DNA of 64,000 nucleotides from Rhizobium sp. Q54 (GTDB taxonomy: Bacteria; Pseudomonadota; Alphaproteobacteria; CADEGL01), in assembly GCA_945860095.1 (NCBI GenBank), contig CAMAPP010000001.1, positions 3,741 to 67,740 on the forward strand, in the 5' to 3' direction. Under the pieces are notes generated by a model, which saw nothing but the letters and a program-made list of their open reading frames with translations, ran no database searches and was not told the origin of the DNA. Made by a program: the position numbers and the translations under genes. This document shows positions 4,484 to 57,337 of this stretch, piece by piece. The number at the start of each line of letters is the position of its first letter. Positions within the stretch are counted from its first letter, which is position 1.

Positions 4484-4508
4484 AACAGCGCAAGTCCGGC
4501 AATAAACA

Positions 4509-5237
4509 ATGCGATCCGTTGGCGTCATCGTGGCCCGAGGTGGATCCAAGCGGATCCCGCGCAAGGTTTTGCGCCCGCTCGGCGGCATTCCCCTACTTGC
4601 CTGGATGTCAAAGGCCGCGCTTGCAAGCCGGCTTGACGCCGTCGTGCTATCGACCGACGACGCCGAGATCGCCGCGCTCGGCCGCGAACTCGGGCTGTCG
4701 GTGCCGTTTCTGCGCCCCGCGGAATTGGCGCAGGATTTCGTCCGCAATGACGACGTCGTTCTGCACGCCATAGACATGCTCGGTTCTTCCGATTCGCCCG
4801 GCGCCGATATCGCGGTTCTTTTGCAACCGACCGCGCCTTTCACGCTGCCCGGCGATATCGATGCCTGCCTCGATGCGATGGAGGAAGCCGAGATTGCTTG
4901 CTGTTTTACCGCGCGCAAGGCGACCGAGAGACCGGAATGGATGTTCGTGCCGGGCGATAAGGGCACGGTAAAATTGCTGTTGGGTGGCGAGCTGGTCGGC
5001 GACCGGCAGCACAGCCAGAAATTGACGACGTACTATGTGCCTTCGGGCGCGGTGTGGGCGACGCGCGCCGATACGCTTCGCCGCACGCGGAGCTTCTACG
5101 CGCCGCCTTTGCGTATCGTCGAAGTCGAAGAGCACCGCACCGCCGACATCGATGTGGAGGACGATCTGATCGTTGCCGAGGCCCTGCTTCGAGCCCACGC
5201 GCTGGCGCCGGTCGGCGCGGAGCGCGGTCGCCGATGA
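4509..5237 (+). CDS. Acylneuraminate cytidylyltransferase family (CMP-nonulosonic acid synthetase), copy 1
   Basis: The N-terminus reads VGVIVARGGSKRIPRKVL... and the size is about 240 aa, typical of NeuA/LegF/PseF. Confidence 0.75.
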   Translation: MRSVGVIVARGGSKRIPRKVLRPLGGIPLLAWMSKAALASRLDAVVLSTDDAEIAALGRELGLSVPFLRPAELAQDFVRNDDVVLHAIDMLGSSDSPGADIAVLLQPTAPFTLPGDIDACLDAMEEAEIACCFTARKATERPEWMFVPGDKGTVKLLLGGELVGDRQHSQKLTTYYVPSGAVWATRADTLRRTRSFYAPPLRIVEVEEHRTADIDVEDDLIVAEALLRAHALAPVGAERGRR

Positions 5238-6271
5238 CGCGCGTCAAAAATATGACGCCGTTGGTTTGCGGACCGCGCGCGACCATGCGCGAAGCCATCG
5301 AGCGCATCAATGCCAGCCCGTATCTGTTTCAGGTCGTCGTCGATTCCGCCGGCTTCGTCCAGGGTACGGTAACCGATGGCGATATCCGGCGCGCCATGCT
5401 GCGCGGTGTTTCGCTCGACGATGCGGTCGAGGAAGGCATGCATCGCAATCCCATCGTCGGTTCCACGTCGAATACCGAGGACAATCTTCGGTTGCTGCGC
5501 AGGACAAAATTTCTGCCCGTCGTCGACGATGCGGGACGACTGGATCATGTTCTGGTGGAGCGCACTCCCGCCGGGGGCATCGGCGCGGCGCTCGTGATGG
5601 CCGGCGGCTTCGGCACGCGCCTGGGTGACGCCACGCGCGGCACGCCCAAGCCCCTGCTCGATATCGGCGGCCGGCCGATGATCGACCGTGTGCTCGCCGG
5701 ACTCGAGGACGCGGGCGTGTCGCGCATCACGGTCGCGGTGCATTACCTCGCCGAACAGATCGAGGCTTTCCTCGACGCGCGCGGCGGACGGCCGCGAGTC
5801 TCCGTGATCCGCGAGAGCGAGCCCCTGGGCACGGCGGGCGCGCTCGGGCTCATCGACCTTCCGCCCGATCGACCGGTCTTCGTCGTCAACGGCGATCTGG
5901 TGACCGGGGTGGATTATGCCGCCATGCACGAGTTTCACGTGCGCCACGGCTTCGACGGCTCGGTCGCCGCCGCGCGTCACGAATTGACCATCCCGTACGG
6001 CGTACTGCGCTACGACGAGGACGGCCTCATCTCCGGCATCGACGAGAAGCCGACGCTGCACCACTTCGTCGCGGCGGGCATCTATTATCTCTCGCCCGAG
6101 ATCGTCGCGCTGGTCGCGCGCGGACGCCCCATCGACATGCCGGAACTTTTGGAAAGCGCACGGAAAATCGGCTTGCGTATCGGCGTCTTTCCGGTTCACG
6201 AGCATTGGCGCGATGTCGGAAGGCCGGGCGATCTGTCGGCCGCGCGTTCGGAATTCGACGGCGCGAAATAG
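5234..6271 (+). CDS. CBS-domain sugar-phosphate nucleotidyltransferase (PtmE-like)
   Basis: An N-terminal CBS pair is followed by a nucleotidyltransferase motif (LVMAGGFGTRLG...KPLL). The ATG overlaps the upstream stop (ATGA). Confidence 0.7.
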   Translation: MTRVKNMTPLVCGPRATMREAIERINASPYLFQVVVDSAGFVQGTVTDGDIRRAMLRGVSLDDAVEEGMHRNPIVGSTSNTEDNLRLLRRTKFLPVVDDAGRLDHVLVERTPAGGIGAALVMAGGFGTRLGDATRGTPKPLLDIGGRPMIDRVLAGLEDAGVSRITVAVHYLAEQIEAFLDARGGRPRVSVIRESEPLGTAGALGLIDLPPDRPVFVVNGDLVTGVDYAAMHEFHVRHGFDGSVAAARHELTIPYGVLRYDEDGLISGIDEKPTLHHFVAAGIYYLSPEIVALVARGRPIDMPELLESARKIGLRIGVFPVHEHWRDVGRPGDLSAARSEFDGAK

Positions 6272-10858: not shown

Positions 10859-10886
10859 TCCAGCCCCAGCGGAGAAGGAAACCCTC

Positions 10887-11914: not shown

Positions 11915-12190
11915 ATGGCAATGACGGCGCCAACCTTACCCAGCACCGGCCCGATCGCCCCCCGCCTCGGCGGCGAGTTGCCGGCGGGCGCGGACGGCGC
12001 GCCCACTGCGCCGTGGGCGCTGCCGGCGGACGTGCTTGCCTTCAGCCATGACCGCGCGGCCCTGTCATGGCTTCATGCGGCGCGCGGTCCGTTCCGGAGC
12101 GCGCTGCATGAAGCCTATACCTGTCCGAGCGTGCCGGAGAATATTATCGAAATTAATACCCATGGTGATGTCGGATTAATCCATGACTGA
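11915..12190 (+). pseudogene. Truncated 5' remnant of a DegT-like aminotransferase gene (paralogue of 12998..14077)
   Basis: The product ...LAFSHDRAALSWLHAARGPFRSALHEAYTCPSVPE... aligns with ...LYFSHGRAALRWIVGARGPFAGALVCAYTWPTVPD... of the intact gene. The remnant has high GC and ends exactly at the start of the low-GC acetyltransferase gene. Confidence 0.45.
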
Positions 12191-12893
12191 CTATTTTGTT
12201 GTCGATAAAGACGTTGAAAATCTTCTGCCTCAAGATACGCTGGCCTTCGATGGGCGCGTGCGGATTGGCAGCCGCGCCAAAATATCGGTGGGCACTCGGA
12301 TCGAGCCTCCAGTCTTAGTCGCATCGGGCGCGCGCATTTTAGACGGAGTTTCGATCGGCAAGTATTCTTACGTCGGTCGCAATACCATCGTGACCCGCGC
12401 TGACATTGGGTGCTTCTGCAGCATCGCACATGATTGCCAAATTAATTATTTCCGCGGACACCCGATGGATTGGTTAAGTACTCATACATTTCAGTATGAT
12501 CGCGATAATTTTGCTTTTTGGAGCGGTTATTCCGGTTTTACAAAGCAGCATTTTGATGGCGATACCACTCAAGCAAAGGTTGTGATTGGCGCGGATGTTT
12601 GGCTCGGAGCTGGCGTGTATATATTCGGAGGCGTCACGATTGGTTCGGGTGCGATCATTGGTGCGCGCGCAATGGTTCAGCGCGACATACCTGCCTATGG
12701 CGTCGCGGTCGGGGCACCCGCCAAGGTCAAGAACTACAGGTTCGATCAAAAATTAATCGAAAAATTGCTCGCCATCGAATGGTGGACGCTTGATGAGTCA
12801 TTGCTGCGCGACTTGCCGTTTTACGACGTAAATCGCTGTCTGGAGTTGCTGGACGAGCGGACGTTAAATTCCAAGTCATCCCCTGGAATTTAG
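12183..12893 (+). CDS. Hexapeptide-repeat (left-handed beta-helix) acetyltransferase, Vat/CatB-like
   Basis: Imperfect hexapeptide repeats are present (IGADVWLGAGVYIFGGVTIGSGAIIGARAMV). The N-terminal 60 bp sampled is about 40% GC. Confidence 0.8.
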   Translation: MTDYFVVDKDVENLLPQDTLAFDGRVRIGSRAKISVGTRIEPPVLVASGARILDGVSIGKYSYVGRNTIVTRADIGCFCSIAHDCQINYFRGHPMDWLSTHTFQYDRDNFAFWSGYSGFTKQHFDGDTTQAKVVIGADVWLGAGVYIFGGVTIGSGAIIGARAMVQRDIPAYGVAVGAPAKVKNYRFDQKLIEKLLAIEWWTLDESLLRDLPFYDVNRCLELLDERTLNSKSSPGI

Positions 12894-12997: not shown

Positions 12998-14077
12998 TTG
13001 ATGGCTGATTCTATGGATCGGACTGGCATCGAGGTCTCCTCCGCACCAGTTGGCGGGCATCGCCGCTTTGGCGGGACGATCCCTGTTGGCGCCGATGCCC
13101 TTCTCGCGACAGCCGCGCGGCTTGATCCGACATTACTCTATTTTTCGCATGGGCGTGCCGCGCTCCGTTGGATCGTCGGAGCGCGAGGACCATTCGCCGG
13201 TGCCTTGGTTTGCGCCTACACATGGCCGACAGTGCCCGATTTGCTCACTTCGCTTGGCCTCGAAGTGCGGACGTTTGACGTCGGTGATCCCGATCCGACA
13301 CGCCTCATTCCAGCCGGCAATACCCGTTGGCTGGTACTGGTGCCTGCGCTGTTCGGCGTCGAACCGTGGCTCGACTTGGGAGCATTGGCCCGCGCGCTGG
13401 GTTCTCGCGCCATGGTGGTGCTCGACGCCGCGCAGACGGCATTTGCGGCGATCGATCATGCCCCGCCTCCAGGCGGTGGCGTGTTTTCGTGCCTGCACAA
13501 ATGCACGGCGTTGGGTGATGGAGCCTTGTTAGCACTCGATCCGCCCCCGCGTTCAGATGAGCGACAGGCTCTCGAGCAAAGTCCGATGGCCATCGAATCG
13601 AGCAAAACAAGGCTTAAGGCGCGTATAGCCTTTGCGCGAGGTAACGAAGAGGGCGAGATTCAAGCGCTTGAACTGATAAGAGAAGCCGAGGCACTTTGGC
13701 CGTTAAACTTTTGCCGGATGACGGATGAATCCAAAAGCCTTTTGGCTTACCTTGATCGATCCGCGCACGGTACACGACGCCGCGCCAATGGTGCGCGGCT
13801 AACGAAGGCGCTTAACGGTCGCCTGCCATTTGCTTGGACGGGCGAGGGCGTGCCTTTCTGTCAGACAATACTCGTTGCCGCGCGTGCAACCCTGCTTCCA
13901 CGGTTACACGCGCGTCGAGTCTTTGCCTCCCCATTGTGGCCTGATGCCCACTGCGATGCCGGTCGTCACCCTCGGGCTGCGCGTTTTGCGCGCGAACTTA
14001 TAGCGCTGCCGTTAGACCAACGTTATGAGCCCGCCGACATGGACGCTCTTGCCGATCTCGTGCTCGATGCGTTGTGA
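12998..14077 (+). CDS. DegT/DnrJ/EryC1/StrS-family (sugar aminotransferase-like) protein, divergent
   Basis: The order of conserved blocks matches the DegT fold: FSHGRAAL, TWPTVPD, VVLDAAQT and GVFSCLHKCTALGDGA (candidate PLP lysine). Confidence 0.55.
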   Translation: MMADSMDRTGIEVSSAPVGGHRRFGGTIPVGADALLATAARLDPTLLYFSHGRAALRWIVGARGPFAGALVCAYTWPTVPDLLTSLGLEVRTFDVGDPDPTRLIPAGNTRWLVLVPALFGVEPWLDLGALARALGSRAMVVLDAAQTAFAAIDHAPPPGGGVFSCLHKCTALGDGALLALDPPPRSDERQALEQSPMAIESSKTRLKARIAFARGNEEGEIQALELIREAEALWPLNFCRMTDESKSLLAYLDRSAHGTRRRANGARLTKALNGRLPFAWTGEGVPFCQTILVAARATLLPRLHARRVFASPLWPDAHCDAGRHPRAARFARELIALPLDQRYEPADMDALADLVLDAL

Positions 14078-14088
14078 GTGGTGATGCG

Positions 14089-15030
14089 TCAATCTGGCGT
14101 GTGGCGGCGTCGCAGCATCAACTTAAGTCCTTGCTCAATTTCTATGGAAGCCTGGAAATCGAGCGCGCGCCGAGCATATTCGGTGTTGAGTGCAAAACGC
14201 AGCTGGGGTGGCCGATCCGTGGTGGTTTCACGCACAATGACGCGGCCGCGACCGGCAACGCAAACGCAGGCTTGCGCGATTTCCATTAAAGTTTGCGGTG
14301 CGCCGCTTGCCACATTGAAAGTCGCCCAGGCGCGTCGGTCGAGTGTCAATTTAACGGCGCGGGCTACGTCCGCGGCGTGCACAAGGTCGATGCAATCTTT
14401 GGCTGGTGGATCGATTAGAATTGTTTCGTCTTTAGCTGCTATTTCGAGCCATGTTGGTATGAGTTTTCCGGAAGCCATACCGGTTCCGTAGATCGATGAT
14501 GGCCGCAGTACGGCTAGATTCAAACCTTCCTGTCGCAGAGGCCACAAAGCGGCTTCCGCAAGTAGTTTGCTATGGCCGTATGCGCCGCCGGTTGCACCTT
14601 GCCAGGCCAGTTCGTCGTTCTCTGCTGGCCGACCACCCTCAGCAGCGGCATACACCGTTGCCCCGGATATAAAAATCATTGGTATGCCTCGAGCCAGCGC
14701 CCAGCCTCCGAGCGCCCAGGTGGCACGAATATTGGCATCGAACAGTGTTCGACAATCCATCGTCACGCCTGGCGCCCGGACCAAGGCCCCTGCATGGACC
14801 ACGGCTGTGGCGGCGGGGAACAACTCATCGAGCGCATCCGGCTCGCGCCATTCCTGGAGATCCCATATCTCCCAACTTGAGGCTTCACCTTGATCTGCCG
14901 GAACCTTGCGAGAAGCAGCCAGAACTTCCACGCGATCGCGTGCAAGCAAGGCCAGGATATGGCGCCCGAGAACGCCGGAGGCGCCGGTAAGGGCGATGCG
15001 GTGGGGCGGGCTGAGCGTGCCATGAGACAT
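14089..15030 (-). CDS. NAD-dependent epimerase/dehydratase family protein
   Basis: Has the N-terminal Rossmann motif IALTGASGVLG. It is the only reverse-strand gene in the glycan locus. Confidence 0.7.
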   Translation of the reverse strand: MSHGTLSPPHRIALTGASGVLGRHILALLARDRVEVLAASRKVPADQGEASSWEIWDLQEWREPDALDELFPAATAVVHAGALVRAPGVTMDCRTLFDANIRATWALGGWALARGIPMIFISGATVYAAAEGGRPAENDELAWQGATGGAYGHSKLLAEAALWPLRQEGLNLAVLRPSSIYGTGMASGKLIPTWLEIAAKDETILIDPPAKDCIDLVHAADVARAVKLTLDRRAWATFNVASGAPQTLMEIAQACVCVAGRGRVIVRETTTDRPPQLRFALNTEYARRALDFQASIEIEQGLKLMLRRRHTPD

Positions 15031-15080
15031 GGCATGATGGTGACGTGTGCGGCTGCTGTTATCAACGGATATTGGCTCTG
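15031..15080. promoter_or_regulatory. Short divergent intergenic region between the epimerase (-) and NeuC copy 1 (+); likely divergent promoters
   Basis: Inferred only from the divergent gene arrangement. Confidence 0.2.
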
Positions 15081-16244
15081 ATGCTTCGGGTATGCCTTGT
15101 CACTGGTTCGCGCGCCGAATATGGCCTGTTGCGCCCCGTTATTGCGGCCTTGAAGGCCGAGCAAGGTATGATCGTAAGTCTGGTCGTAACGGCGATGCAC
15201 TTGTCGCCCGAGTTTGGACTTAGCATTGGCGAGATCGAAGCGGACGGTCACCGCATCGATGCACGCGTCGAGATGCTGCTTTCCTCGGATTCCGGCGTTG
15301 GCGTCGCCAAGTCGATGGGGCTTGGCACGATCGGCCTTGCCGACGTTTTTGCCCGGATTGCACCGGACATCATCATTTTATTCGGCGACCGTTTTGAGAC
15401 GCTCGCAGCGGCACAGTCCGCGCTCGTCATGCGGATTCCGGTTGCGCACGTGTCCGGAGGCCATGTCACACATGGCGCATTCGACGATGCGATTCGACAT
15501 AGCATCACGAAAATGTCGCATATCCATTTCGCGACCACTGAAGAGGCGGGTTTGCGCATCCGGCAACTTGGTGAAGACACAGCCAACATTCATGTTGTCG
15601 GTGACCCGGGCATCGATGCAATTCGACTCACCAAGCGCCTGGCAAAGCCTGCCGTTGAGGAGCGGCTTGGCTTTCGTCTGCTTAGCCGAAATGTCCTCGT
15701 GACGTTCCATCCTGTCACGCTCGATCCGATTCCTTCAGTGCAGCAATTTGAAAATCTTCTAACTGCGCTGGATTCACTTGGGCCGAATATGGGCATCATT
15801 CTCACCAAGCCAAATGCCGATGTCGAAGGCCGCTCGCTCGGGGCCTTGGCGGAGGATTTTGCGGCCGGGCGCCCCAATGCCATCTGTCGCAGTTCACTCG
15901 GACACCTTCTTTATCTCAGCACCATGGCCGAGGTGGATGTCGTCATTGGGAATTCTTCAAGCGGTCTGCTGGAGGCTCCGTCGCTTGAAAAGCCGGCGGT
16001 CAATATCGGCATGCGGCAATCGGGCCGACCTAGGGCCGCTTCGGTAATCGACTGTCCAGCGGATGCGCGAGCCATCGGGGACGCAATACAGCGCGCCTTT
16101 AGGCTCGACTGCCGTGGCGTGGTAAATCCTTACGGTGACGGCCATGCGGCAGAGCGCATCCTAGCGGTATTGAAGATGACGCGCGATCCGCAGGCGCTGC
16201 TCTACAAACGCTTCCGCGACCTTCCTCCTACAAACTCCAGGTGA
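15081..16244 (+). CDS. UDP/GDP-N-acetylglucosamine 2-epimerase (hydrolysing), NeuC/LegG family, copy 1
   Basis: VTGSRAEYGLLRPV, HVSGGHVTHGAFDDAIRHSITKMSHIHF and GNSSSGLLEAPS are typical of NeuC. An alternative GTG start lies at 15045. Confidence 0.8.
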   Translation: MLRVCLVTGSRAEYGLLRPVIAALKAEQGMIVSLVVTAMHLSPEFGLSIGEIEADGHRIDARVEMLLSSDSGVGVAKSMGLGTIGLADVFARIAPDIIILFGDRFETLAAAQSALVMRIPVAHVSGGHVTHGAFDDAIRHSITKMSHIHFATTEEAGLRIRQLGEDTANIHVVGDPGIDAIRLTKRLAKPAVEERLGFRLLSRNVLVTFHPVTLDPIPSVQQFENLLTALDSLGPNMGIILTKPNADVEGRSLGALAEDFAAGRPNAICRSSLGHLLYLSTMAEVDVVIGNSSSGLLEAPSLEKPAVNIGMRQSGRPRAASVIDCPADARAIGDAIQRAFRLDCRGVVNPYGDGHAAERILAVLKMTRDPQALLYKRFRDLPPTNSR

Positions 16245-17080
16245 CGGTTGTGAGTAAAAACGCCGTCTACGCTCCATTGTTTGACCTGGCTGGCCGCCGC
16301 GCCATCATCACGGGTGCCTGTGGGACGCTCGGGCCTGCGTTCGCGGCGGCGCTTGCCGAAATGGGCGCCTCGGTCGTGGTTTCCGACATTGATGCGTCCA
16401 ATGCCGAGGCGCTGGCCGCCGAACTCGCACAGGCCCACGGTCGCCGCACGCTTGGGCTGTCCTGTGACGTTAGCAACGCGACCGCCGTCGATGAAATGAT
16501 CGAACGCGCAGTTCAAGCTTTCGGCGGCATCGACATCCTGGTCAACAATGCCCAAGCGGCCAACCCTAATCCCAGCCGCTATTTCGATCCGCTGGAACAT
16601 TATTCGTTCGAGGAGTGGCGGCGTCGGATGTCTGTCGACCTCGACGGCATGTTCCTGGTGGCTCAAGGCACTGCTCGGCGCATGGCGAAGCAAGATACCG
16701 GTGGCGCGATCGTGCAAATCGCTTCGATTTATGGCGCGCTCGGTCCCGACCAACGTATCTACGAGGGGGCGGGGTTTCGCGGCGCTCCGATCAATCTGCC
16801 GCCGGTCTATTCGGCCGCCAAGGGTGGAGTCATTGGGCTGACGCGTTGGCTTGCGACGTGGGGGGCCGACAAAGGCATCCGTGTTAATGCGCTGGTGCCT
16901 GGCGGCGTCGAAAGCGGTCAGAATGACGAGTTCGTGAAAAAATATAGCCAGCGTGTTCCGCTTGGCCGCATGGCGCGCCGCGAAGAGGTAGCGTCCTCGT
17001 TGTTGTGGCTTGTTTCGGATGCCGCAAGCTATGTTACAGGGCAGACGATCTTCGTCGATGGCGGATTGAGCGCGTGGTGA
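16241..17080 (+). CDS. SDR family oxidoreductase (PtmA-like)
   Basis: ITGACGTLG glycine-rich motif, NNAQ and the YSAAK catalytic motif are present. The GTG start overlaps the upstream stop. Confidence 0.8.
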   Translation: MTVVSKNAVYAPLFDLAGRRAIITGACGTLGPAFAAALAEMGASVVVSDIDASNAEALAAELAQAHGRRTLGLSCDVSNATAVDEMIERAVQAFGGIDILVNNAQAANPNPSRYFDPLEHYSFEEWRRRMSVDLDGMFLVAQGTARRMAKQDTGGAIVQIASIYGALGPDQRIYEGAGFRGAPINLPPVYSAAKGGVIGLTRWLATWGADKGIRVNALVPGGVESGQNDEFVKKYSQRVPLGRMARREEVASSLLWLVSDAASYVTGQTIFVDGGLSAW

Positions 17081-18558
17081 CTCTGGCAGAGGCTAACGGC
17101 GGTATTCCGCTCACGTTGTACGGCGTGAGTCCGGAGGAGCTCGCCGAGGACGTCTATTACCGTCGAGACTTCTTCGAATTACATCGTGGCTCCGGTTTCA
17201 TCGATTGCATCGAGGGGCCCTCGTTTCATGCCGGCGCGGTCGTGCGCGCCATCGAGGGGACCGATCTGGAAGACCTAGAAACACCATGGGGCTATGGCGG
17301 TCCGATCGCGACCAGCCATGAACAGATGCGACAAGGCATGTGGCTGTGGCGTCAGCGCCAGCGTGAGGCCGGCCGAGTGGCTGAATTCGTGCGCCTGCAC
17401 CCATTCCTCAATCCACTGGCCGTCCACGATTACTATGCTGACATCAAGTTTGATCGTGTAACGATTGCCGTCGATCTATCGCTGCCACGCGAACAACGCC
17501 GTCGCGTCTATTCCGAAGGCACCAAGAACCGACTTCGCCGCGCGGCACGAAGCATGACAGTTGTGAGACTCGGAATCGAACACGCCGAAGATTTTCGGCG
17601 CTGCTACGAAACCGGACTAGACCGCAATAACGCGCTCTCTGCCTATTATTTTGGCGATGACTATTATGAGAAAATTCTCGCGTCGCCTTGGGCGACGTGC
17701 CTTGGCGGGCAATTGGATGGCGAGATTGTATCGATTGCGTGTTTCCTCCATACGGGAATATTTTGCCACTACCATCTGTCCGGTTCGACGTCGGACGGAC
17801 GCGCTAAGTTTGCACACTATCTTCTACTTGATCATGCATTTGATTATTTTTCGGAAAAAGGCGCGCGCCTCATGCATCTCGGCGGCGGCCGGACGGAACG
17901 GCCAGACGATGCGCTGCTGGAGTTCAAGAAGAAGTTTTCCCGTTGGCGCCTAGCGTTCTACACGGCCGGTGCCATCTATGACCCCGAAGCCTATGCCCAG
18001 CTTTCGACTGGGGACACGCGGCGCTTCTTGAACTATCGGTTTAGCCTCACCCCTCGTGATGAGGTCGGCGATGTGGTCTTGCGCAAAGCAACGATTCAAG
18101 ACCTCACCTCCTATTTTCAATTGAAATGCGATGTCTCAAATATTTTTTGGTCTGGACATGTGTCACCGCCGGACTGGCGTCATTTAAGTGCCTGGTATAC
18201 CGCTTTATTCAACGAAAATATGAAGCGCGAAGTCTTTATCGCTGAGATGCATTCACGGGTCATCGGCTACGCGTATCTCGACGACAAGAATGATCATCTC
18301 GAGTCGACATTGGGGGTCGCGGCATCGGAGTCAAACCGCGCACGCGGCCGCCATCTACTTATGGAGATGGTCAAGATATTGCGAGAGCGAAACGAAACAC
18401 GTTCGGTGGAAGCGTGGATTTTTAAGGAGAACATCGCGTCCGTGAAGGCACACGAGGCAGCGGGTTTTGTTTTGGATTCGAGCCGACCGACAAGATCGTC
18501 CAATATGCCTTTCGTTAAAAACGGTAATATTCAAAGTTGCTGGGTGTGGAGGGTTTAG
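17074..18558 (+). CDS. FemAB-like (Acetyltransf_6/aminoacyl-transferase fold) domain fused to a C-terminal GNAT acetyltransferase domain
   Basis: The N-terminal roughly 340 aa resemble FemAB/peptidoglycan-bridge-type transferases. The C-terminal part is a classic GNAT (VIGYAYLD ... RARGRHLLMEMV ... AAGF). The start is taken as a GTG overlapping the SDR stop; track entry 17005 is probably over-extended. Confidence 0.55.
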   Translation: MVTLAEANGGIPLTLYGVSPEELAEDVYYRRDFFELHRGSGFIDCIEGPSFHAGAVVRAIEGTDLEDLETPWGYGGPIATSHEQMRQGMWLWRQRQREAGRVAEFVRLHPFLNPLAVHDYYADIKFDRVTIAVDLSLPREQRRRVYSEGTKNRLRRAARSMTVVRLGIEHAEDFRRCYETGLDRNNALSAYYFGDDYYEKILASPWATCLGGQLDGEIVSIACFLHTGIFCHYHLSGSTSDGRAKFAHYLLLDHAFDYFSEKGARLMHLGGGRTERPDDALLEFKKKFSRWRLAFYTAGAIYDPEAYAQLSTGDTRRFLNYRFSLTPRDEVGDVVLRKATIQDLTSYFQLKCDVSNIFWSGHVSPPDWRHLSAWYTALFNENMKREVFIAEMHSRVIGYAYLDDKNDHLESTLGVAASESNRARGRHLLMEMVKILRERNETRSVEAWIFKENIASVKAHEAAGFVLDSSRPTRSSNMPFVKNGNIQSCWVWRV

Positions 18559-18559
18559 C

Positions 18560-19732
18560 GTGGGATTGTCTCGCAAGAAAGTATGCGTAGTCACCGGCAC
18601 ACGCGCCGAGTTTGGTCTGCTTCGTCCGGTCATGGCGCTTCTCAAGAAGGATTCGGCTTTTGACCTTCAGGTCATCGCCTCGGCCATGCATCTGGTGCCG
18701 GAATTCGGATTGACGTACCGCGAAATCGAAGCGGCGGGATTTGATATCGATGCAAAGGTAGAGATGCTGATCGCCGGCGACACGCCTGCGGCCGCGGCAA
18801 AGTCGATGGGAATCGGCACCATGGGCTTCGCTGATGCATTTTCTCGACTTGAACCCGATATGATCATGCTATTGGGCGATCGATTCGAGGCGCTCGCCGC
18901 CGCTTCGACCGCGACGGTCATGGGCATTCCCATCATCCATTTGGTGGGGGGCGACGTTACCGAAGGCGCCTTCGACGATGCCATTCGGCACGCGATTACA
19001 AAGATGTCCCATCTGCACTTTGTGGCCTCGAAGGAATCAGGTGGCCGAGTCCGGCAAATGGGTGAGGAGCCGTTTCGTGTGCATGTCGTGGGCGATCCTG
19101 GACTCGATGGTCTGCGGCAGATGACATTGATTGGTCGGAAAGCCCTGGAACGAGATATCGGATTTCGGTTTCGTCACAAGAATCTCGTTGTCACCTTTCA
19201 CCCAGCGACGCTCGATCGTATTCCGTCGACCAAGCAGTTCGCCACCGTGTTGGATGCGCTCGACAGCCTTGGTCCGGATTTTGGCCTTATCTTCACTAAA
19301 CCGAACGCCGATCCGCAAGGGCGGGCGCTCATCGTCATGCTCGATGCGTTTGTTCGGGATCACCCGAATTCGGCTGCTTTCGTGTCTTTAGGGCAGCGCC
19401 GCTATCTAAGCGTCATGGCGCAATGTGACGCAGTCGTCGGCAATTCGTCGTCAGGGCTCTTAGAGGCGCCGTCGTTGGGCATACCCACGATCAACATAGG
19501 AAGCCGCCAGAATGGCCGTCTGAAGGCGAAGACGGTTTATGATTGTTCTGTGGACAAGGCGGGGATAGTTAGGGCGCTTCGCAAAGCCCTGAGCGGGCGT
19601 ATTGGAAAGGTGGATAATCCACATGGAGATGGCCATACGGCGCCTCGAATCATACGCATACTGAAAAAGGTACGCGATCCAAAGAGCCTATTGCGCAAAT
19701 CCTTCCATAACCTCAATCGATCCCTTGTCTGA
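18560..19732 (+). CDS. UDP/GDP-N-acetylglucosamine 2-epimerase (hydrolysing), NeuC/LegG family, copy 2
   Basis: Shares roughly 50-55% identity with copy 1 (VTGTRAEFGLLRPV, HLVGGDVTEGAFDDAIRHAITKMSHLHF, GNSSSGLLEAPS). GTG start. Confidence 0.8.
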   Translation: MGLSRKKVCVVTGTRAEFGLLRPVMALLKKDSAFDLQVIASAMHLVPEFGLTYREIEAAGFDIDAKVEMLIAGDTPAAAAKSMGIGTMGFADAFSRLEPDMIMLLGDRFEALAAASTATVMGIPIIHLVGGDVTEGAFDDAIRHAITKMSHLHFVASKESGGRVRQMGEEPFRVHVVGDPGLDGLRQMTLIGRKALERDIGFRFRHKNLVVTFHPATLDRIPSTKQFATVLDALDSLGPDFGLIFTKPNADPQGRALIVMLDAFVRDHPNSAAFVSLGQRRYLSVMAQCDAVVGNSSSGLLEAPSLGIPTINIGSRQNGRLKAKTVYDCSVDKAGIVRALRKALSGRIGKVDNPHGDGHTAPRIIRILKKVRDPKSLLRKSFHNLNRSLV

Positions 19733-20804
19733 CCGGGTTTACATCATCGCGGAGGCGGGGGTGAACCATAACGGTTCGCTCGATATGGCGCTTCGGTTGA
19801 TAGATTGCGCCGCTGAGGCTGCCGCGGATGCGGTGAAATTTCAGACGTTCAAGGCCGAAAAGGTGGTGACCGCCGCCGCACCTAGGGCGGCGTATCAAAT
19901 TGCGAATGTGGGCGAGGATGGCTCGCAGATCGAATTGATTCGGAATTTGCAACTTGATGAATCGGATTTTTATAAACTCGCCGCTCATGCAGCCGCGTGC
20001 AATATCGAATTCATGTCCACGCCCTTCGACCTCGAATCATTGCAATTTCTCGTGCACGAAATTGGCATCCGCCGGCTTAAAATTCCCTCTGGCGAAATCA
20101 CCAACATCTTCTTATTGCTAGGTGCGGCGCGATCGAAGCTTCCACTAATTGTCTCGACGGGCATGTGCACGCTCGACGACATCGAAGCGGCCTTGGACGT
20201 GCTTGCCTTTGGCCTCGTCCAGCCCAATGTCGCGCCTTCCGCAAATCGTATTTGGGGCGCTTCCACCAGCGCGGCCGGCCGTGCCGCCTTGATGGAAAAG
20301 GTGACGTTGCTCCACTGCACTACGGAGTATCCAAGTCCGGTGGAAGATACAAATTTGCGCGCAATGCAGACCATGCGCGATAAATTCAACCTTCCGGTTG
20401 GTTATTCTGACCACACCAGTGGCATCGCAATTCCTGTTGCCGCGGCAGCTCTGGGCGCAACTGTGATCGAAAAGCATTTCACTCTTGATCGCTCACTGCC
20501 GGGCCCGGACCACCCCGCCTCTCTGGAACCTACTGAATTGAAGTCGATGGTTCAATTCGTGCGCAAATCGGCTGCGGCATTAGGGCGGTCTGAAAAATTA
20601 CCAGCGCCTTCCGAACTTAAAAACATTCCGATTGCACGGCGCAGCCTAGTCGCCGCGCGCTCGATTCGGCACGGGGAAACGCTTGACCTGTCGATGCTCG
20701 ACGCAAAGCGCCCTGGTACGGGCCTGTCGCCAATGCGCATATTTGACATCGTCGGGACCAAGGCTAAGCGTGATTACGCTCCAGATGAGGCGATTGAATC
20801 GTGA
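19725..20804 (+). CDS. N-acetylneuraminate synthase family (NeuB/LegI/PseI-type nonulosonic acid synthase)
   Basis: The N-terminus YIIAEAGVNHNGS, the conserved core and a C-terminal SAF-like domain are present. Confidence 0.85.
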   Translation: MSDRVYIIAEAGVNHNGSLDMALRLIDCAAEAAADAVKFQTFKAEKVVTAAAPRAAYQIANVGEDGSQIELIRNLQLDESDFYKLAAHAAACNIEFMSTPFDLESLQFLVHEIGIRRLKIPSGEITNIFLLLGAARSKLPLIVSTGMCTLDDIEAALDVLAFGLVQPNVAPSANRIWGASTSAAGRAALMEKVTLLHCTTEYPSPVEDTNLRAMQTMRDKFNLPVGYSDHTSGIAIPVAAAALGATVIEKHFTLDRSLPGPDHPASLEPTELKSMVQFVRKSAAALGRSEKLPAPSELKNIPIARRSLVAARSIRHGETLDLSMLDAKRPGTGLSPMRIFDIVGTKAKRDYAPDEAIES

Positions 20805-21451
20805 GCAGGCCGGTCATTATCGTCGGCGGCGGAGGCCACGCCCACGTGATTATCGACGCGCTTACCCGCGGTGGCATCTCAGTGATCGGAATTTGCGATC
20901 CGGCCCTGTCGAAGGGTTCGTTAGGGCCGCTAGGCGTTTTGGTTCTTGGCAACGATAGTGCCCTGTCCGGCTATCCACCATCGGATGTCGATCTTGTGAA
21001 TGGCGTGGGATCGACCTCTTCAACGGATTCCCATAGACAGGTGTTCGAAGTCTTCAGCCGACGCGGCTACCGCTTTGTGTCGGTCGTGCATCCGAGTGCG
21101 ATCATTGCACGTGACGTAAGAGTAGAAGAGGGCGGTCAATTGATGGCGGGGGTTGTGGTCCAGGCCGGGACGGTCATTGGCCGCAATACGATTGTCAATA
21201 CTGGCTCCTGCATCGACCACAATTGTCGGCTCGGTGACCATGTACACGTAGCGCCGGGCGTGACGCTGTCCGGGGGCGTGACTGTTGGGTCGAACACGCA
21301 CATAGGAGTTGGTGCTTCGATTATTCAATCGGTCATCATCGGTGAACACTGTCTAATTGGAGCGGGCACCGTCGTGCTAACTAATGTCGATGATGGCTGT
21401 CGTATCGTAACGCCCCCGAGTCGAACGCTCATCGAGCGACCGGCAAAGTAA
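20801..21451 (+). CDS. NeuD/PglD-family sugar N/O-acyltransferase (hexapeptide)
   Basis: A Rossmann-like N-terminus (IIVGGGGHA) precedes left-handed beta-helix repeats. It overlaps the upstream stop. Confidence 0.8.
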   Translation: MSRPVIIVGGGGHAHVIIDALTRGGISVIGICDPALSKGSLGPLGVLVLGNDSALSGYPPSDVDLVNGVGSTSSTDSHRQVFEVFSRRGYRFVSVVHPSAIIARDVRVEEGGQLMAGVVVQAGTVIGRNTIVNTGSCIDHNCRLGDHVHVAPGVTLSGGVTVGSNTHIGVGASIIQSVIIGEHCLIGAGTVVLTNVDDGCRIVTPPSRTLIERPAK

Positions 21452-21473: not shown

Positions 21474-22400
21474 ATGGCCCGTACACTTGTTGTCGGATAC
21501 GGCTCGATCGGCGAACGCCATGGTCGTCTCCTTGCGGAGCTTGGACACGAAGTGGCGGTAGTCAGCCGCCGCGCCATTTCGCATTCATCGAAGTTTAGCG
21601 CAGTGGCCGACGCAATGCGGGCAATCAAACCTGAATACGTCGTAATTGCGAACGAGACTTCCGCGCATCGCTCGACCGTTGCTGCCCTCGTAGCCTGCAA
21701 TTTTTCCGGAATAATCCTTATCGAAAAGCCGCTCTTCGAGTGCACTAGCAGTAGGGATGCAACCGACCGAGCAAACACTTATGTGGGTTATGCTCTTCGT
21801 TTTCACCCATTGATGGTTCAGTTGCGAGAATGGGTACGGACGAGAAGAGTAGTCTCGGCGTCAATTCATGTAGGGCAGAATTTGTCGAGGTGGCGCCCCG
21901 GCCGGGATCTCCGTGATTCCTATTCAGCGCAACCAGCGCTTGGGGGCGGCGTGTTGCGTGACCTAAGTCACGAGTTGGACTATGCGATCTGGTTGTTCGG
22001 CGCATGGCGACGCGTTGCAGCGATCGGCGGAGCAAGCGGTGTACTTGGTATCGAAGCGGATGATCATTGGAGCATCGTGGCGGAGTTCGATCGCTGTCCA
22101 CAGGTAAGCATGACGCTTAGCTATCTCGACGAGCCACCGCGGCGTCAGATCGTGGTCAATACGGACTCTGGGACAGCGTCCGTCGACTTGCTGCGTGGAT
22201 CATTCCAGACCAGTGAGCAACCGGAGCCTGATCGCATTCGCGTTGACCGTGACGAACTCTATCGCCAGCAGCACAAAGTGATCCTATCCGGCTGTCCCGG
22301 GCAGGCATGCACGTATGGCGAAGGCCTTGCTGTCGTCTTATTCATCGAAGCGATCGAAAGTGCTGCCCGAACAGGATTCTGGATCGCTGGTTATCGATAA
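21474..22400 (+). CDS. Gfo/Idh/MocA family oxidoreductase (PtmF-like)
   Basis: The N-terminal Rossmann segment (LVVGYGSIGERH) and the EKP motif are present. Confidence 0.7.
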   Translation: MARTLVVGYGSIGERHGRLLAELGHEVAVVSRRAISHSSKFSAVADAMRAIKPEYVVIANETSAHRSTVAALVACNFSGIILIEKPLFECTSSRDATDRANTYVGYALRFHPLMVQLREWVRTRRVVSASIHVGQNLSRWRPGRDLRDSYSAQPALGGGVLRDLSHELDYAIWLFGAWRRVAAIGGASGVLGIEADDHWSIVAEFDRCPQVSMTLSYLDEPPRRQIVVNTDSGTASVDLLRGSFQTSEQPEPDRIRVDRDELYRQQHKVILSGCPGQACTYGEGLAVVLFIEAIESAARTGFWIAGYR

Positions 22401-23117
22401 ATGAAGCGAATTTGCACAATCTGCGCGCGGGGGGGGTCCAAAGGTCTTCCCGGCAAGAACCTTCGGAAGCTTCTTGGAAAATCCCTCATCGCGCATTCCG
22501 TTGAGCACGCGCGCGCGACCGGCTTATTTGATGCCATCGCCGTGAGTAGCGACGACGACGACATTTTGCTGGCTGCGCGACAAGCAGACGTCGATCACCT
22601 GGTCAAACGCCCGTCCCATCTTGCCAACGATGTAGCTGCCAAGATGCCGACAATTCAGCACTGCGTGCGCGCAGTAGAAGAGAAATTAAATCAACAGTTC
22701 GATGTTATGGTCGATTTAGATGCCACTGCTCCATTGCGGCTTCCGGAGGATATCACGGGTGCCGTGGCGATGTTGGAGGCTGGCGGCTGCGACAATGTCA
22801 TTACCGGCAGTGAGGCGCACCGATCGCCGTATTTTAATCTTGTGGAGATGGGCAGAGATGGCTTCGTGAACCTGTCGAAGCCGGGTGGAGGGCTCGTTCG
22901 CCGGCAGGATTCACCCAAATGCTACGACTGCAATGCATCAATATACGTCTGGCCGCGCGCGACCTTTTTCGTGGCAGCGTTCGCCATTATGCCACGCACG
23001 AAGCTCTATGAAATGCCTCGCGGACGTTCACTCGATATCGACAACGAACTAGATTTTGAGATTGTCGAATTCCTCATGCGTCGCGCCGAGTTTGTGGACA
23101 GAGGATTGCGGAAATGA
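22401..23117 (+). CDS. Acylneuraminate cytidylyltransferase family (CMP-nonulosonic acid synthetase), copy 2
   Basis: The N-terminus reads ICTICARGGSKGLPGKNL... with the canonical length. Confidence 0.8.
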   Translation: MKRICTICARGGSKGLPGKNLRKLLGKSLIAHSVEHARATGLFDAIAVSSDDDDILLAARQADVDHLVKRPSHLANDVAAKMPTIQHCVRAVEEKLNQQFDVMVDLDATAPLRLPEDITGAVAMLEAGGCDNVITGSEAHRSPYFNLVEMGRDGFVNLSKPGGGLVRRQDSPKCYDCNASIYVWPRATFFVAAFAIMPRTKLYEMPRGRSLDIDNELDFEIVEFLMRRAEFVDRGLRK

Positions 23118-24716: not shown

Positions 24717-24857
24717 ATGAGTAGGGGGGTGCCGAGTCGGGTGGACGAGCGCGGGCGGATCTGGCCGGATGCGGCCGCGCTCGAGGACGCCGTCTTGGCC
24801 GGCGCCGCCACGGCCGACCCCGGCTATTTCCGCCGTCTTTTGGCGGGCGATTCGTGA
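24717..24857 (+). pseudogene. 3' remnant of a resident homologue of the 526-aa Capsule_synth-like gene
   Basis: It encodes ...RIWPDAAALEDAVLAGAATADPGYFRRLLAGDS*, which parallels the C-terminus ...RFRVDFSELEEAICGTGSEPDPSYFRRLTSG* of 23114..24694. It is high-GC and keeps a GTGA overlap with the next gene. Confidence 0.4.
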
Positions 24858-57262: not shown

Positions 57263-57337
57263 TGGAGCGGGAGAAGGGATTCGAACCCTCGACCCTCACG
57301 TTGGCAACGTGATGCTCTACCCCTGAGCTACTCCCGC
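57263..57337 (-). tRNA. tRNA-Gly(GCC): tRNA-Gly (anticodon GCC), with encoded CCA
   Basis: The reverse complement reads GCGGGAGTAGCTCAGGGGTAGAGCATCACGTTGCCAACGTGAGGGTCGAGGGTTCGAATCCCTTCTCCCGCTCCA, which folds into a cloverleaf with anticodon loop TTGCCAA. Confidence 0.85.

What the first reader, a model, noticed from the sequence alone, without database searches (positions are those of the whole stretch)
17074..18558. FemAB-like/GNAT fusion inside the NulO island
A roughly 495-aa protein joins an N-terminal FemAB/Acetyltransf_6-like domain to a C-terminal canonical GNAT. FemAB-family enzymes use aminoacyl-tRNA to transfer amino acids onto amines. It lies between the two NeuC genes and is coupled to the SDR gene. 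N-aminoacyl (for example N-acetyl-alanyl or glycyl) substituents occur on natural Leg and Pse derivatives. This fusion could aminoacylate a NulO amino group and then N-acetylate the added residue.
Basis: inference. Interest (0 to 1): 0.65.

Follow-up and report, generated by a model that had tools for sequence, protein, structure and literature searches.

The report
Alanyl-adding, acetylating enzyme for legionaminic acid
This gene fuses a probable tRNA-dependent amino-acid-adding enzyme to an acetyltransferase inside a legionaminic-acid sugar cluster; its first half is a clear relative of the proposed but untested E. coli O161 "alanyltransferase" Lea3, so it is a fused variant of a known kind.

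Summary
ORF 17074-18558 (+) encodes 494 aa. Its start overlaps the stop of the SDR gene, and NeuC2 starts 1 nt after its stop.

Residues 1-311 form a Fem-type double-GNAT domain:
- Pfam Acetyltransf_6 scores just below threshold.
- Sequence E-values to Weissella FemX run from 7e-6 (single sequence) to 4e-8 (profile).
- The catalytic Phe-Lys pair (F284-K285) is invariant.

Residues 334-494 are a canonical GNAT.

The N-domain is 33% identical (E=3e-48) to the FemA/FemB-family protein of the E. coli O161 O-antigen cluster, taken here to be Lea3, the proposed alanyltransferase for Leg5Ac7Ala. It sits in the same place, next to the NeuB/NeuC genes. Relatives occur as FemX-GNAT fusions, as FemX-PglD fusions, or as adjacent Fem and GNAT genes, always in amino-sugar clusters.

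Best reading: the enzyme adds an amino acid (probably alanine) from aminoacyl-tRNA to the 4-amino nucleotide-sugar precursor (N7 of Leg), then N-acetylates it. tRNA use, the amino acid, the acceptor and the acetylation target are all inferred.

New here are the fusion and a divergent DegT-like PLP protein (12998-14077) that travels with the Fem-like gene. The SDR and PglD genes are standard Leg-cluster parts.

The parts
17074..18558 (+). Complete gene for the 494-aa bifunctional protein (GTG start, TAG stop)
   Evidence: Identical protein P0001 and 44 full-length homologs.
17074..18006 (+). Residues 1-311: Fem-type double-GNAT aminoacyl-transferase domain
17923..17928 (+). Codons for F284-K285, which align with the FemX(Wv) F304-K305 pair
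   Evidence: Residue-by-residue alignments. K285 is invariant and F284 invariant or nearly so across the family. The pair is also kept in the O161 protein. Role of Lys305 from PMC12945691.
18073..18555 (+). Residues 334-494: GNAT N-acetyltransferase domain. Residues 312-333 form a lower-confidence linker.
12998..14077 (+). Divergent DegT-like PLP-fold protein (359 aa, no Pfam hit), a conserved partner of the Fem-like gene
   Evidence: Directly next to the Fem-like gene in L002, L004-L008 and distant L015; in the same cluster, three genes upstream, in the window and L001. AF2 pLDDT 93. Foldseek E=1e-13 to sugar aminotransferases. Invariant D143, Q146 and K168. K168 aligns with the DegT lysine, though the hhalign probability is low.
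11963..12175 (+). Truncated relic of another DegT-like gene (N-terminal ~75 aa), marking a recombination junction at the left edge of the lower-GC block
   Evidence: tblastn 47% identity, E=2e-11. Translation. GC profile.
14089..15030 (-). SDR-type NAD-dependent epimerase/dehydratase on the opposite strand, present only in the window and L001
15045..16244 (+). NeuC1, a hydrolysing 2-epimerase paralog (extra copy)
   Evidence: TIGR03568 420.6 bits. 54-55% identical to NeuC2.
16241..17080 (+). SDR oxidoreductase, a standard Leg-cluster component relocated here
   Evidence: Homologs follow the CMP-synthetase gene in L002, L005 and E. coli O108/O61.
18560..19732 (+). NeuC2 (LegG-like), starting 1 nt after the target's stop codon
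19725..20804 (+). NeuB/LegI-type nonulosonic acid synthase
   Evidence: TIGR03569 453.8 bits, above the 399.65 cut-off.
20801..21451 (+). PglD/NeuD/LegH-type LbH sugar acetyltransferase
   Evidence: TIGR03570 204.8 bits. 34-35% identical to the E. coli O108/O61 acetyltransferase at the same position.
21474..22400 (+). Gfo/Idh/MocA oxidoreductase of the Leg cluster
22401..23117 (+). CMP-nonulosonate synthetase
5054..6271 (+). CBS-domain sugar-1-phosphate nucleotidyltransferase, probably supplying the nucleotide-sugar precursor (from memory, similar to C. jejuni PtmE)
   Evidence: 33-35% identical to the E. coli O108/O61 nucleotidyltransferase.

Best explanation
The gene encodes a two-step N-acylating enzyme of a legionaminic-acid (Leg) pathway.

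Step 1. The N-terminal Fem-type double-GNAT domain takes an aminoacyl group from a charged tRNA. Alanine is the best guess, by homology to E. coli O161 Lea3. It transfers the group to the free 4-amino group of the nucleotide-linked 2-acetamido-4-amino-2,4,6-trideoxyhexose made by the dehydratase and aminotransferase. K285, preceded by F284, plays the role of FemX Lys305.

Step 2. The fused C-terminal GNAT uses acetyl-CoA to cap the new alpha-amino group.

Downstream. NeuC, NeuB and the CMP-synthetase, whose genes follow directly, convert the product into a CMP-Leg5Ac7(N-acetyl-aminoacyl) donor for a surface glycan.

Shown here: fold, motifs, homology to the O161 protein, and synteny.

Inferred: the tRNA donor, the amino acid, the acceptor position and stage, and the target of the GNAT. 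My rough sub-probabilities are 0.8 for a Fem-type aminoacyl transfer within the Leg pathway, 0.6 for the C4-amine/N7 acceptor at the nucleotide-sugar stage, and 0.55 for the GNAT capping the added residue.
For: Fold and motifs.
- Sequence matches to FemX.
- F284-K285 is conserved and aligned with FemX F304-K305. The review describes Lys305 as the catalytic residue and reports that the equivalent Lys329 of DhpH-C is essential, with Phe328 contributing (PMC12945691).
- A basic helix at residues 148-160 (TKNRLRRAARS), with conserved T150, R151 and R155, matches the tRNA-binding helix described in that review.

Homology to Lea3.
- 33% identity over 304 aa, E=3e-48, to the FemA/FemB-family protein of the E. 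coli O161 cluster.
- That protein sits between the LegC aminotransferase and NeuB/NeuC. The O161 cluster has no LegH-type acetyltransferase, and the O161 antigen carries Leg5Ac7Ala (PMC7685785).
- JGI names three relatives 'UDP-N-acetylbacillosamine alanyltransferase'.

Synteny.
- In every locus examined the gene lies in a Leg-type or bacillosamine-type cluster, usually in the order DegT, DegT-like, Fem(-GNAT), NeuC, NeuB.

Link to acetylation.
- 44 FemX-GNAT fusions.
- A split version with an adjacent homologous GNAT gene (L013).
- The acidobacterial operon PglC, GNAT, Fem-like, DegT.
- Fusions to PglD-type acetyltransferases in both orders, and one to a formyltransferase.
- GNAT fold neighbours include RimJ/RimL and MccE, which from my own knowledge acetylate alpha-amines.

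Chemistry. N-acetyl-alanyl and N-acetyl-glycyl amino sugars, and Leg5Ac7AcAla, are known natural products (PMC3210612; PMC7371886).
Against: - There is no biochemical evidence for this protein. As far as the held literature shows, there is none for Lea3 either; its function was proposed from sequence.
- The window protein's own Pfam Acetyltransf_6 score is just below the gathering threshold.
- A LegH/PglD-type acetyltransferase, which normally acetylates the same 4-amine, is also present in the window (20801-21451). In locus L004 it is the fusion partner in place of the GNAT. So either PglD or the GNAT could be the capping enzyme, and the GNAT might instead acetylate a sugar amine.
- The GNAT also resembles PseH weakly.
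- The amino acid cannot be read from the sequence at 33% identity.
- From memory, the alanyl groups reported on Leg derivatives are D-alanyl. A tRNA donor would deliver the L form.
Confidence: 0.6

Rival explanations
1. The Fem-like domain does aminoacylate the Leg precursor, but the fused GNAT does not cap the added residue. Instead it acetylates a sugar amine, working like PseH or LegH. The target could be the C2 amine of a GlcN-derived precursor, or the C4 amine in a parallel Leg5Ac7Ac branch. The aminoacyl amine then stays free, as written for O161 Leg5Ac7Ala, or is capped by the PglD-type enzyme.
For: - In L004 the Fem-like domain is fused to a PglD-type domain and no GNAT is present.
- O161 has a Lea3-type protein without any acetyltransferase.
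- A CBS-domain nucleotidyltransferase is present. From memory, the C. jejuni PtmE route passes through GDP-GlcN, which would leave a free C2 amine.
Against: - The PseH score of 30 bits is far below the 93-bit cut-off.
- Fused domains usually catalyse consecutive steps.
- The pairing of GNAT and Fem-like genes recurs in clusters that have no second sugar amine to acetylate (L016 and the P0097 locus).
- The window already has a LegH-type enzyme for the sugar amine.
Confidence: 0.2
2. The N-terminal double-GNAT domain is not tRNA-dependent. It uses an acyl-CoA or another activated donor to put a non-amino-acid acyl group on the sugar.
For: - Only a marginal Pfam score for this protein.
- From my own knowledge, most Acetyltransf_6 members are uncharacterised.
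- Some relatives are fused to ATP-grasp domains, which could activate free acids.
Against: - The four best structural matches, and the MprF and L-PGS matches, are all aminoacyl-tRNA-dependent. CoA-using tandem GNATs score lower and align over a single domain only.
- The Phe-Lys catalytic pair is invariant.
- The O161 homolog correlates with an alanyl substituent.
Confidence: 0.1
3. Aminoacylation happens late, on CMP-NulO or on the assembled glycan or flagellin, rather than on the nucleotide-hexose precursor.
For: Nothing in the sequence fixes the stage, and the two NeuC paralogs could be unrelated to it.
Against: - The gene sits between the aminotransferase and NeuC/NeuB in most loci, and in E. 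coli O161.
- Distant relatives sit beside PglC-type phosphoglycosyltransferases in clusters of the bacillosamine type, where the acceptor would be a UDP-4-amino sugar.
- A finished Leg5Ac7Ac has no free amine.
Confidence: 0.07
4. It is a peptidoglycan cross-bridge Fem enzyme that merely happens to lie in the sugar cluster.
For: RefSeq names the E. coli homolog 'peptidoglycan bridge formation glycyltransferase FemA/FemB family protein'.
Against: - The NulO or amino-sugar context is conserved in about 12 independent loci across Alphaproteobacteria, Acidobacteria and E. coli.
- The NCBIfam FemX equivalog score is 30 bits against a cut-off of 500.
- The hosts are Gram-negative. From my own knowledge their peptidoglycan has no interpeptide bridges.
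Confidence: 0.02

Closest known systems
E. coli O161 Lea3, the 'alanyltransferase' of the CMP-Leg5Ac7Ala pathway (WP_021539203.1, locus L019:7397-8389; the equation with Lea3 rests on gene order and product names)
   Same: - 33% identity over the whole 304-aa domain, E=3e-48.
- All family motifs are shared: DLETP(W/Y)GYGGP, HPF, HYHLS, LGGGRT and the FK pair.
- The position is the same, next to the NeuB and NeuC genes of a Leg cluster.
   Different: - Lea3 is a stand-alone 330-aa protein.
- The O161 cluster has no GNAT, no LegH/PglD-type acetyltransferase and no DegT-like partner.
- The reported O161 product is Leg5Ac7Ala.
- The review lists Lea3 among proposed functions; no biochemical test turned up in the held literature.
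Weissella viridescens FemX and the FemABX family of aminoacyl-tRNA-dependent peptidoglycan transferases
   Same: - The catalytic Phe-Lys pair is aligned.
- A basic helix lies on GNAT subdomain 2.
   Different: - About 16% identity.
- The predicted acceptor is a nucleotide amino sugar, not the lysine of UDP-MurNAc-pentapeptide.
- It fails the FemX equivalog cut-off (30 bits against 500).
- It carries an extra third GNAT domain.
[quoted passage not shown]
   Different: They belong to secondary-metabolite pathways in Streptomyces. Orf11 uses Gly-tRNA. There is no fused acetyltransferase and no nucleotide-sugar context.
Vibrio vulnificus CMCP6 Leg5Ac7AcAla pathway
   Same: The product (N-acetyl-alanyl at N7 of Leg) is exactly what the fusion would be expected to make (PMC7371886).
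   Different: The primary paper (PMC6295735) is not held, so I could not see which genes are assigned there. The genome scan found no member of this subfamily in Vibrio.
E. coli O108/O61 8eLeg5Ac7Ac clusters (elg genes)
   Same: The core genes are colinear: NeuC, NeuB, acetyltransferase, (nucleotidyltransferase), Gfo/Idh/MocA, CMP-synthetase, SDR. Identities are 25-54%.
   Different: They lack the DegT-like and Fem-GNAT insert. Their product is the plain di-N-acetyl sugar.

Membership tests
FemABX-type aminoacyl-tRNA-dependent transferases | Double-GNAT fold with a substrate cleft between the two subdomains | tested here: met
   [not shown]
FemABX-type aminoacyl-tRNA-dependent transferases | Curated profile membership (Pfam FemAB or Acetyltransf_6 at the gathering score; NCBIfam FemX equivalog) | tested here: inconclusive
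   Acetyltransf_6 scores 21.4 bits against 22. The FemX equivalog scores 30.1 bits against 500. Most homologs carry precomputed PF13480 and/or PF02388 hits.
FemABX-type aminoacyl-tRNA-dependent transferases | Catalytic lysine preceded by an aromatic residue (FemX F304-K305; DhpH-C F328-K329) | tested here: met
   F284-K285 aligns with F304-K305. It is conserved throughout the family and in the O161 protein. Role from PMC12945691.
FemABX-type aminoacyl-tRNA-dependent transferases | Positively charged tRNA-binding helix on GNAT subdomain 2 | tested here: inconclusive
   Helix 148-160 is rich in Arg and Lys, with conserved T150, R151 and R155. It aligns with the FemX 'TKSKIKRPFRD' segment. No docking or electrostatics were computed.
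FemABX-type aminoacyl-tRNA-dependent transferases | Aminoacyl-tRNA is the acyl donor | not testable with these tools
   Needs an enzyme assay.
Lea3 / 'UDP-N-acetylbacillosamine alanyltransferase' orthology group | Full-length homology to E. coli O161 Lea3 | tested here: met
   33% identity over 304 of 330 aa, E=3e-48. The window domain is closer to the O161 protein than the acidobacterial clade is. JGI gives this name to P0004, which is 59% identical to the window protein.
Lea3 / 'UDP-N-acetylbacillosamine alanyltransferase' orthology group | Location in a Leg cluster beside the aminotransferase and the NeuB/NeuC genes | tested here: met
   In the window itself the canonical DegT is not adjacent, but it is adjacent in L002 and L004-L007.
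Lea3 / 'UDP-N-acetylbacillosamine alanyltransferase' orthology group | Alanine is transferred to the 4-amino group | not testable with these tools
   For O161 this is inferred only from the glycan structure.
GNAT N-acetyltransferases | Pfam GNAT profile above the gathering score, and the GNAT fold | tested here: met
   [not shown]
GNAT N-acetyltransferases | Acetyl-CoA-binding motif A (Q/R-x-x-G-x-G/A) and motif B | tested here: inconclusive
   The family consensus is xGRGxGR. The window has NRARGRH, an imperfect match. A motif-B-like ENxASVxAxEAAGF is conserved.
PseH (Pse-pathway N-acetyltransferase) | Equivalog-level score to TIGR03585 | tested here: not met
   30.2 bits against a cut-off of 93.1.
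Legionaminic-acid biosynthesis cluster | NeuC-type hydrolysing epimerase, NeuB-type synthase, CMP-synthetase, LegH/PglD-type acetyltransferase and a nucleotidyltransferase | tested here: met
   NeuC at 420 and 446 bits, NeuB at 453.8, NeuD/PglD at 204.8, all above their cut-offs. CTP_transf_3 present. The core is colinear with E. coli O108/O61. A canonical 4,6-dehydratase and LegC were not securely identified inside the island.

The most novel reading that the evidence does not exclude
The Fem-like transferase, its almost constant neighbour (the divergent DegT-like PLP protein, window 12998-14077) and an N-acetyltransferase form a three-part module that installs N-acetyl-D-aminoacyl groups on amino sugars. 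An L-amino acid arrives from tRNA. The PLP enzyme then epimerises the free alpha-amine-bearing aminoacyl amide while it is on the nucleotide sugar, in the manner of fold-type-I amino-acid-amide racemases. Acetylation then locks the D configuration. If so, D-alanyl decorations could originate from the translation machinery's L-aminoacyl-tRNA pool.
Probability: 0.12. Interest if true: 0.8.

Novelty: new variant of a known kind. Interest (0 to 1): 0.5.

Why it matters
N-aminoacyl and N-acetyl-aminoacyl groups (AcAla, AcGly and others) decorate legionaminic acids and many 3- and 4-amino-6-deoxy sugars of O-antigens, capsules and flagellins, and they help define serotypes. I found no biochemical characterisation of the enzymes that attach them: the E. 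coli O161 Lea3 function appears in the review as a proposal, and the literature I could search holds nothing on tRNA dependence.

This fusion ties the aminoacyl-transfer step to a capping step in a single polypeptide. It is backed by a family of fused, alternatively fused and split versions. That gives a compact, directly testable candidate for a tRNA-dependent step in nucleotide-sugar biosynthesis. If it holds, surface-glycan synthesis draws on the aminoacyl-tRNA pool, as peptidoglycan bridges and lipid aminoacylation do.

It also flags an uncharacterised PLP-fold partner protein, whose role (possibly L-to-D conversion) is open.

Tried and rejected
Literature.
Searches for Leg5Ac7AcAla, for 'N-acetylbacillosamine alanyltransferase', for nonulosonic with FemAB, and for legionaminic or bacillosamine with alanyl and tRNA found no paper that characterises such an enzyme.
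- The key V. vulnificus paper (PMC6295735, doi 10.1074/jbc.RA118.004966) is not held.

Database searches.
- The genome-contig scan returned only 5 loci, all alphaproteobacterial MAGs. It found none in Vibrio and did not find the window's own genome.
- Sequence and profile searches of the DegT-like protein against PDB found nothing meaningful. Only the structure comparison identified it.
- hhalign of that family against the window's canonical DegT gave a full-length, motif-consistent alignment, but with low probability (3.3%).

Readings rejected.
- The SDR makes the acyl group (for example 3-hydroxybutanoyl). Its orthologs are the terminal oxidoreductase of ordinary Leg clusters.
- The GNAT is PseH. 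It scores far below the cut-off.
- The 14078-14491 (+) ORF is a gene. It overlaps the real minus-strand SDR gene at 14089-15030.
- A dedicated tRNA serves this enzyme. The only tRNA in the window is tRNA-Gly(GCC), 39 kb away.
- The DegT-like protein adds a third sugar amine. The remaining hexose positions become the ring oxygen (C6) or the 9-deoxy methyl of Leg.

Not resolved: the roles of PglD against the GNAT, and why the window has two NeuC genes.
Full report
THE OBSERVATION

The ORF list and translation show one open frame ending at TAG 18556-18558. Candidate GTG starts lie at 17074 and 17077, and both overlap the TGA stop (17078-17080) of the upstream SDR gene. From 17074 the product is 494 aa, and an identical 494-aa protein has been called in public assemblies (P0001). 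The next gene, NeuC2, really starts at GTG 18560, 1 nt after the stop. From 15045 onward the genes run on the same strand with overlapping or nearly abutting stop and start codons, which looks like one operon. The region from about 12.4 to 25 kb has 51-63% GC, mostly 52-60%, against 64-70% around it.

DOMAIN ASSIGNMENT

The C-terminal third (residues 334-466) passes the Pfam thresholds for Acetyltransf_1, Acetyltransf_3 and Acetyltransf_4.

The N-terminal part gives only a marginal Pfam Acetyltransf_6 hit (21.4 bits against 22; E=3e-4). Independent tests agree on what it is:
- NCBIfam FemX model, E=2.8e-7.
- phmmer against PDB, Weissella viridescens FemX, E=7e-6.
- A family profile against PDB, E=3.7e-8, matching FemX only.
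- An AlphaFold2 model built on 35 homologs has pLDDT 91.8 and pTM 0.90.

CATALYTIC FEATURES

In the residue-by-residue alignments, FemX F304-K305 aligns with F284-K285 of the window protein. K285 is invariant, and F284 is invariant or nearly so, in 35 fusion proteins and 11 stand-alone relatives. Other conserved positions include D26, Y28, D67, G73-Y74-G76, R107, H109-P110, Y233-H234, G270-G272 and D279.

A recent review states that Lys305 is the catalytic residue of FemX(Wv). It also reports that the equivalent Lys329 of DhpH-C is essential and that Phe328 contributes, that these enzymes share a double-GNAT fold with a basic tRNA-binding helix, and that Orf11 transfers Gly from Gly-tRNA to the amino-sugar intermediate streptothrisamine (PMC12945691). 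The window protein has a basic helix at 148-160 (TKNRLRRAARS) with conserved T150, R151 and R155. tRNA use itself remains an inference.

RELATIVES AND CONTEXT

The word-indexed search found 58 relatives:
- 44 full-length FemX-GNAT fusions at 39-70% identity. The few that carry organism names are alphaproteobacterial or Rhodospirillaceae MAGs.
- Stand-alone proteins of about 315 aa.
- Two FemX-like proteins fused to PglD-type hexapeptide acetyltransferases.

An exhaustive HMMER search of 1.84 billion cluster representatives gave 52 hits at E<=1e-30 and 1,937 at E<=1e-10. The subfamily is small, but it sits within a large cloud of Acetyltransf_6/FemAB-like proteins. A scan of 185,579 species genomes found only five loci, all alphaproteobacterial MAGs.

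Gene context was read in about a dozen independent loci. The recurring order is DegT, DegT-like, Fem(-GNAT), NeuC, NeuB, PglD, Gfo/Idh/MocA, CMP-synthetase, SDR.
- L013: the Fem-like gene is separate and abuts a homologous 167-aa GNAT gene. A second FemAB-like gene lies nearby.
- L004: the Fem-like domain is fused to the PglD-type acetyltransferase, and there is no GNAT.
- A distant acidobacterial clade (25-31% identity): the operon is PglC-like phosphoglycosyltransferase, GNAT, Fem-like, DegT (L016 and the P0097 locus). In L014 the Fem-like gene heads a Leg-type cluster.
- Other relatives are fused to PglD in the opposite order, to a formyltransferase, to an ATP-grasp domain or to a B12-radical-SAM domain, or occur as two or three tandem Fem-like units.

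The repeated association, in independent arrangements, of a Fem-like unit with an N-acyl-capping enzyme is the main support for the 'add, then cap' reading.

LINK TO KNOWN BIOLOGY

JGI labels three relatives 'UDP-N-acetylbacillosamine alanyltransferase'. The E. coli O-antigen review lists, for O161, Lea1 dehydratase, Lea2 aminotransferase, Lea3 alanyltransferase, Lea4 synthase, Lea5 epimerase, Lea6 nucleotidyltransferase and Lea7 CMP-synthetase, giving CMP-Leg5Ac7Ala (PMC7685785).

I located the O161 cluster in a complete genome, using the E. coli O108 neuC-neuB DNA as a stepping stone. Between the LegC-family aminotransferase and neuB lies a 330-aa 'FemA/FemB family protein', which by position and order I take to be Lea3. 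It is 33% identical to the window's N-domain over 304 residues (E=3e-48). All family motifs are kept, including the FK pair. It is closer to the window's subfamily than the acidobacterial clade is.

So a homolog at the equivalent position correlates with an N7-alanyl legionaminic acid in a chemically characterised O-antigen. The O161 cluster has no LegH-type acetyltransferase, which is consistent with Lea3 taking over the 4-amine. V. vulnificus CMCP6 is reported to make Leg5Ac7AcAla (PMC7371886). N-acetyl-D-alanyl, N-acetyl-L-alanyl and N-acetyl-glycyl amino sugars are widespread (PMC3210612).

WHAT IS STANDARD AND WHAT IS EXTRA

The E. coli O108 and O61 clusters (8eLeg5Ac7Ac) have the order dehydratase, LegC, NeuC, NeuB, acetyltransferase, nucleotidyltransferase, Gfo/Idh/MocA, cytidylyltransferase, oxidoreductase. 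The window's NeuC, NeuB, PglD, GFO, CMP-synthetase and SDR are colinear homologs of these at 25-54% identity. The SDR that overlaps the target's start is therefore an ordinary Leg-cluster gene. In the window and in L001 it has been moved, together with an extra NeuC and a minus-strand SDR epimerase/dehydratase, into the gap between the DegT-like gene and the Fem-GNAT gene.

The extras relative to the E. coli baseline are the DegT-like protein and the Fem-GNAT fusion. Further upstream there is also a conserved set of ABC transporter, unknown 639-aa protein, GFO and radical-SAM/SPASM genes.

THE PARTNER PROTEIN

Window 12998-14077 encodes a 359-aa protein with no Pfam, NCBIfam or PDB sequence match. 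Homologs lie directly beside the Fem-like gene in L002/L003 and L004-L008, and in the same cluster in the window and L001. One also sits beside the distant Fem-like gene of L015, which is not a NulO cluster (profile E=3.6e-11).

Its AF2 model (pLDDT 93.1) matches DegT/ArnB/PseC-type sugar aminotransferases at E=1e-13 with 15-18% identity. D143, Q146 and K168 are invariant. They align with the DAAQ motif and the Schiff-base lysine of the window's canonical DegT, though that hhalign alignment has low probability.

In L002 and L004-L007 a canonical DegT is present as well, so the partner is probably not simply LegC. Its role is open. One possibility is epimerisation of the newly attached L-aminoacyl group to the D form. 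E. coli O161 lacks this protein, which does not favour a universal requirement. I rate the epimerase idea at about 0.12.

MECHANISM AND UNCERTAINTIES

Most likely (0.6 overall), the N-domain transfers an amino acid, probably alanine, from aminoacyl-tRNA to the 4-amino group of the nucleotide-linked precursor, and the GNAT acetylates the new alpha-amine. NeuC, NeuB and the CMP-synthetase then complete a Leg5Ac7(N-acetyl-aminoacyl) donor.

The main uncertainty is the division of labour between the GNAT and the PglD-type acetyltransferase. Both are present here, and PglD replaces the GNAT as the fusion partner in L004. The two NeuC genes and two CMP-synthetase genes (4509 and 22401) in the window, against a single NeuB, might reflect two parallel products. 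Other loci manage with one NeuC.

The alternatives are rated lower in the rival explanations: the GNAT acts on a sugar amine; the donor is not a tRNA; the modification happens late; or the protein has a true peptidoglycan role.

NOVELTY

The kind of enzyme is known: a Fem-type alanyltransferase in a Leg cluster (Lea3, and the JGI source name). To my knowledge it has not been biochemically validated. The fusion to a GNAT, the alternative fusion to PglD and the conserved PLP-fold partner are not described in any paper I could find. I file this as a new variant of a known kind, of moderate interest.

Noticed in passing
window 12998-14077 (+); also L001:5966-7000, L002:8952-10010, L004:8748-9785, L005:~7304-8338, L006:~1231-2241, L007:~2042-3061, L008:~4367-5374 (-), L015:6961-8004: A protein of about 350 aa with no Pfam, NCBIfam or PDB sequence match is conserved next to, or close to, the Fem-like gene. 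By predicted structure it has a DegT-type PLP fold, and the DAAQ motif and a lysine (K168) are invariant. It often sits beside a canonical DegT, so it probably has a different job, which is unknown.
   Followed up: yes
window 11963-12175 (+), between the radical-SAM gene (10887-11864) and the LbH acetyltransferase gene (12183-12893): A truncated relic (about 75 aa, 47% identical) of the N-terminus of another DegT-like gene ends where the LbH gene begins. The lower-GC block starts a little further on (about 12.4-25 kb; 51-63% GC against 64-70%). This looks like the scar of a cluster replacement by recombination.
   Followed up: partly
window 32072-33289 (+) and 33219-34415 (+): A canonical DegT aminotransferase gene is followed by a GNAT + WbqC-like fusion protein (WbqC E=2e-54). 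This is a second acetyltransferase fusion next to an aminotransferase in the same polysaccharide region. It might N-acylate another amino sugar.
   Followed up: no
window 15045-16244 and 18560-19732; 4509-5237 and 22401-23117: There are two NeuC paralogs (54-55% identical) and two CMP-nonulosonate synthetase paralogs (30% identical), but only one NeuB. Related loci other than L001 have a single NeuC. This may mean two NulO products, or substrate-specialised epimerases.
   Followed up: partly
window 6275-11864 (+): ABC transporter 6275-8053, unknown 639-aa ORF 7945-9864, GFO 9851-10858, radical-SAM/SPASM 10887-11864: This upstream gene set is conserved with the Fem-GNAT clusters in L001 and L005, and partly in L002 and L007. 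It is absent from the E. coli Leg clusters. The role of the radical-SAM/SPASM enzyme in a sugar cluster is unexplained.
   Followed up: no
window 23114-24694, 24854-25720, 25745-26728, 26725-28566 (+): Downstream of the CMP-synthetase gene lie conserved genes: an unknown 526-aa protein (its L002 homolog has a weak LIC12162 Pfam hit), an unknown 288-aa protein, an FkbM-type methyltransferase and an AsnB-like amidotransferase. They suggest further tailoring or transfer of the NulO.
   Followed up: no
L013:8354-9436; proteins P0173, P0184, P0209, P0272, P0280, P0264, P0270, P0299: Relatives occur as a second Fem-like gene in the same cluster, as proteins with two or three tandem Fem-like units, and as fusions to ATP-grasp, B12-radical-SAM and formyltransferase domains. 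This hints at di- or tripeptide side chains, or N-formyl-aminoacyl ones, on sugars.
   Followed up: partly
window 57263-57337 (-): A tRNA-Gly(GCC) gene is the only tRNA in the window. It lies 39 kb from the Fem-like gene, and nothing links the two.
   Followed up: no
L019:10738-11529 (E. coli O161) and L013:7556-8344: Hypothetical proteins of about 262 aa with no Pfam hit lie near the Fem-like gene in both clusters. They share weak similarity (28% over 67 aa, E=5e-8).
   Followed up: no
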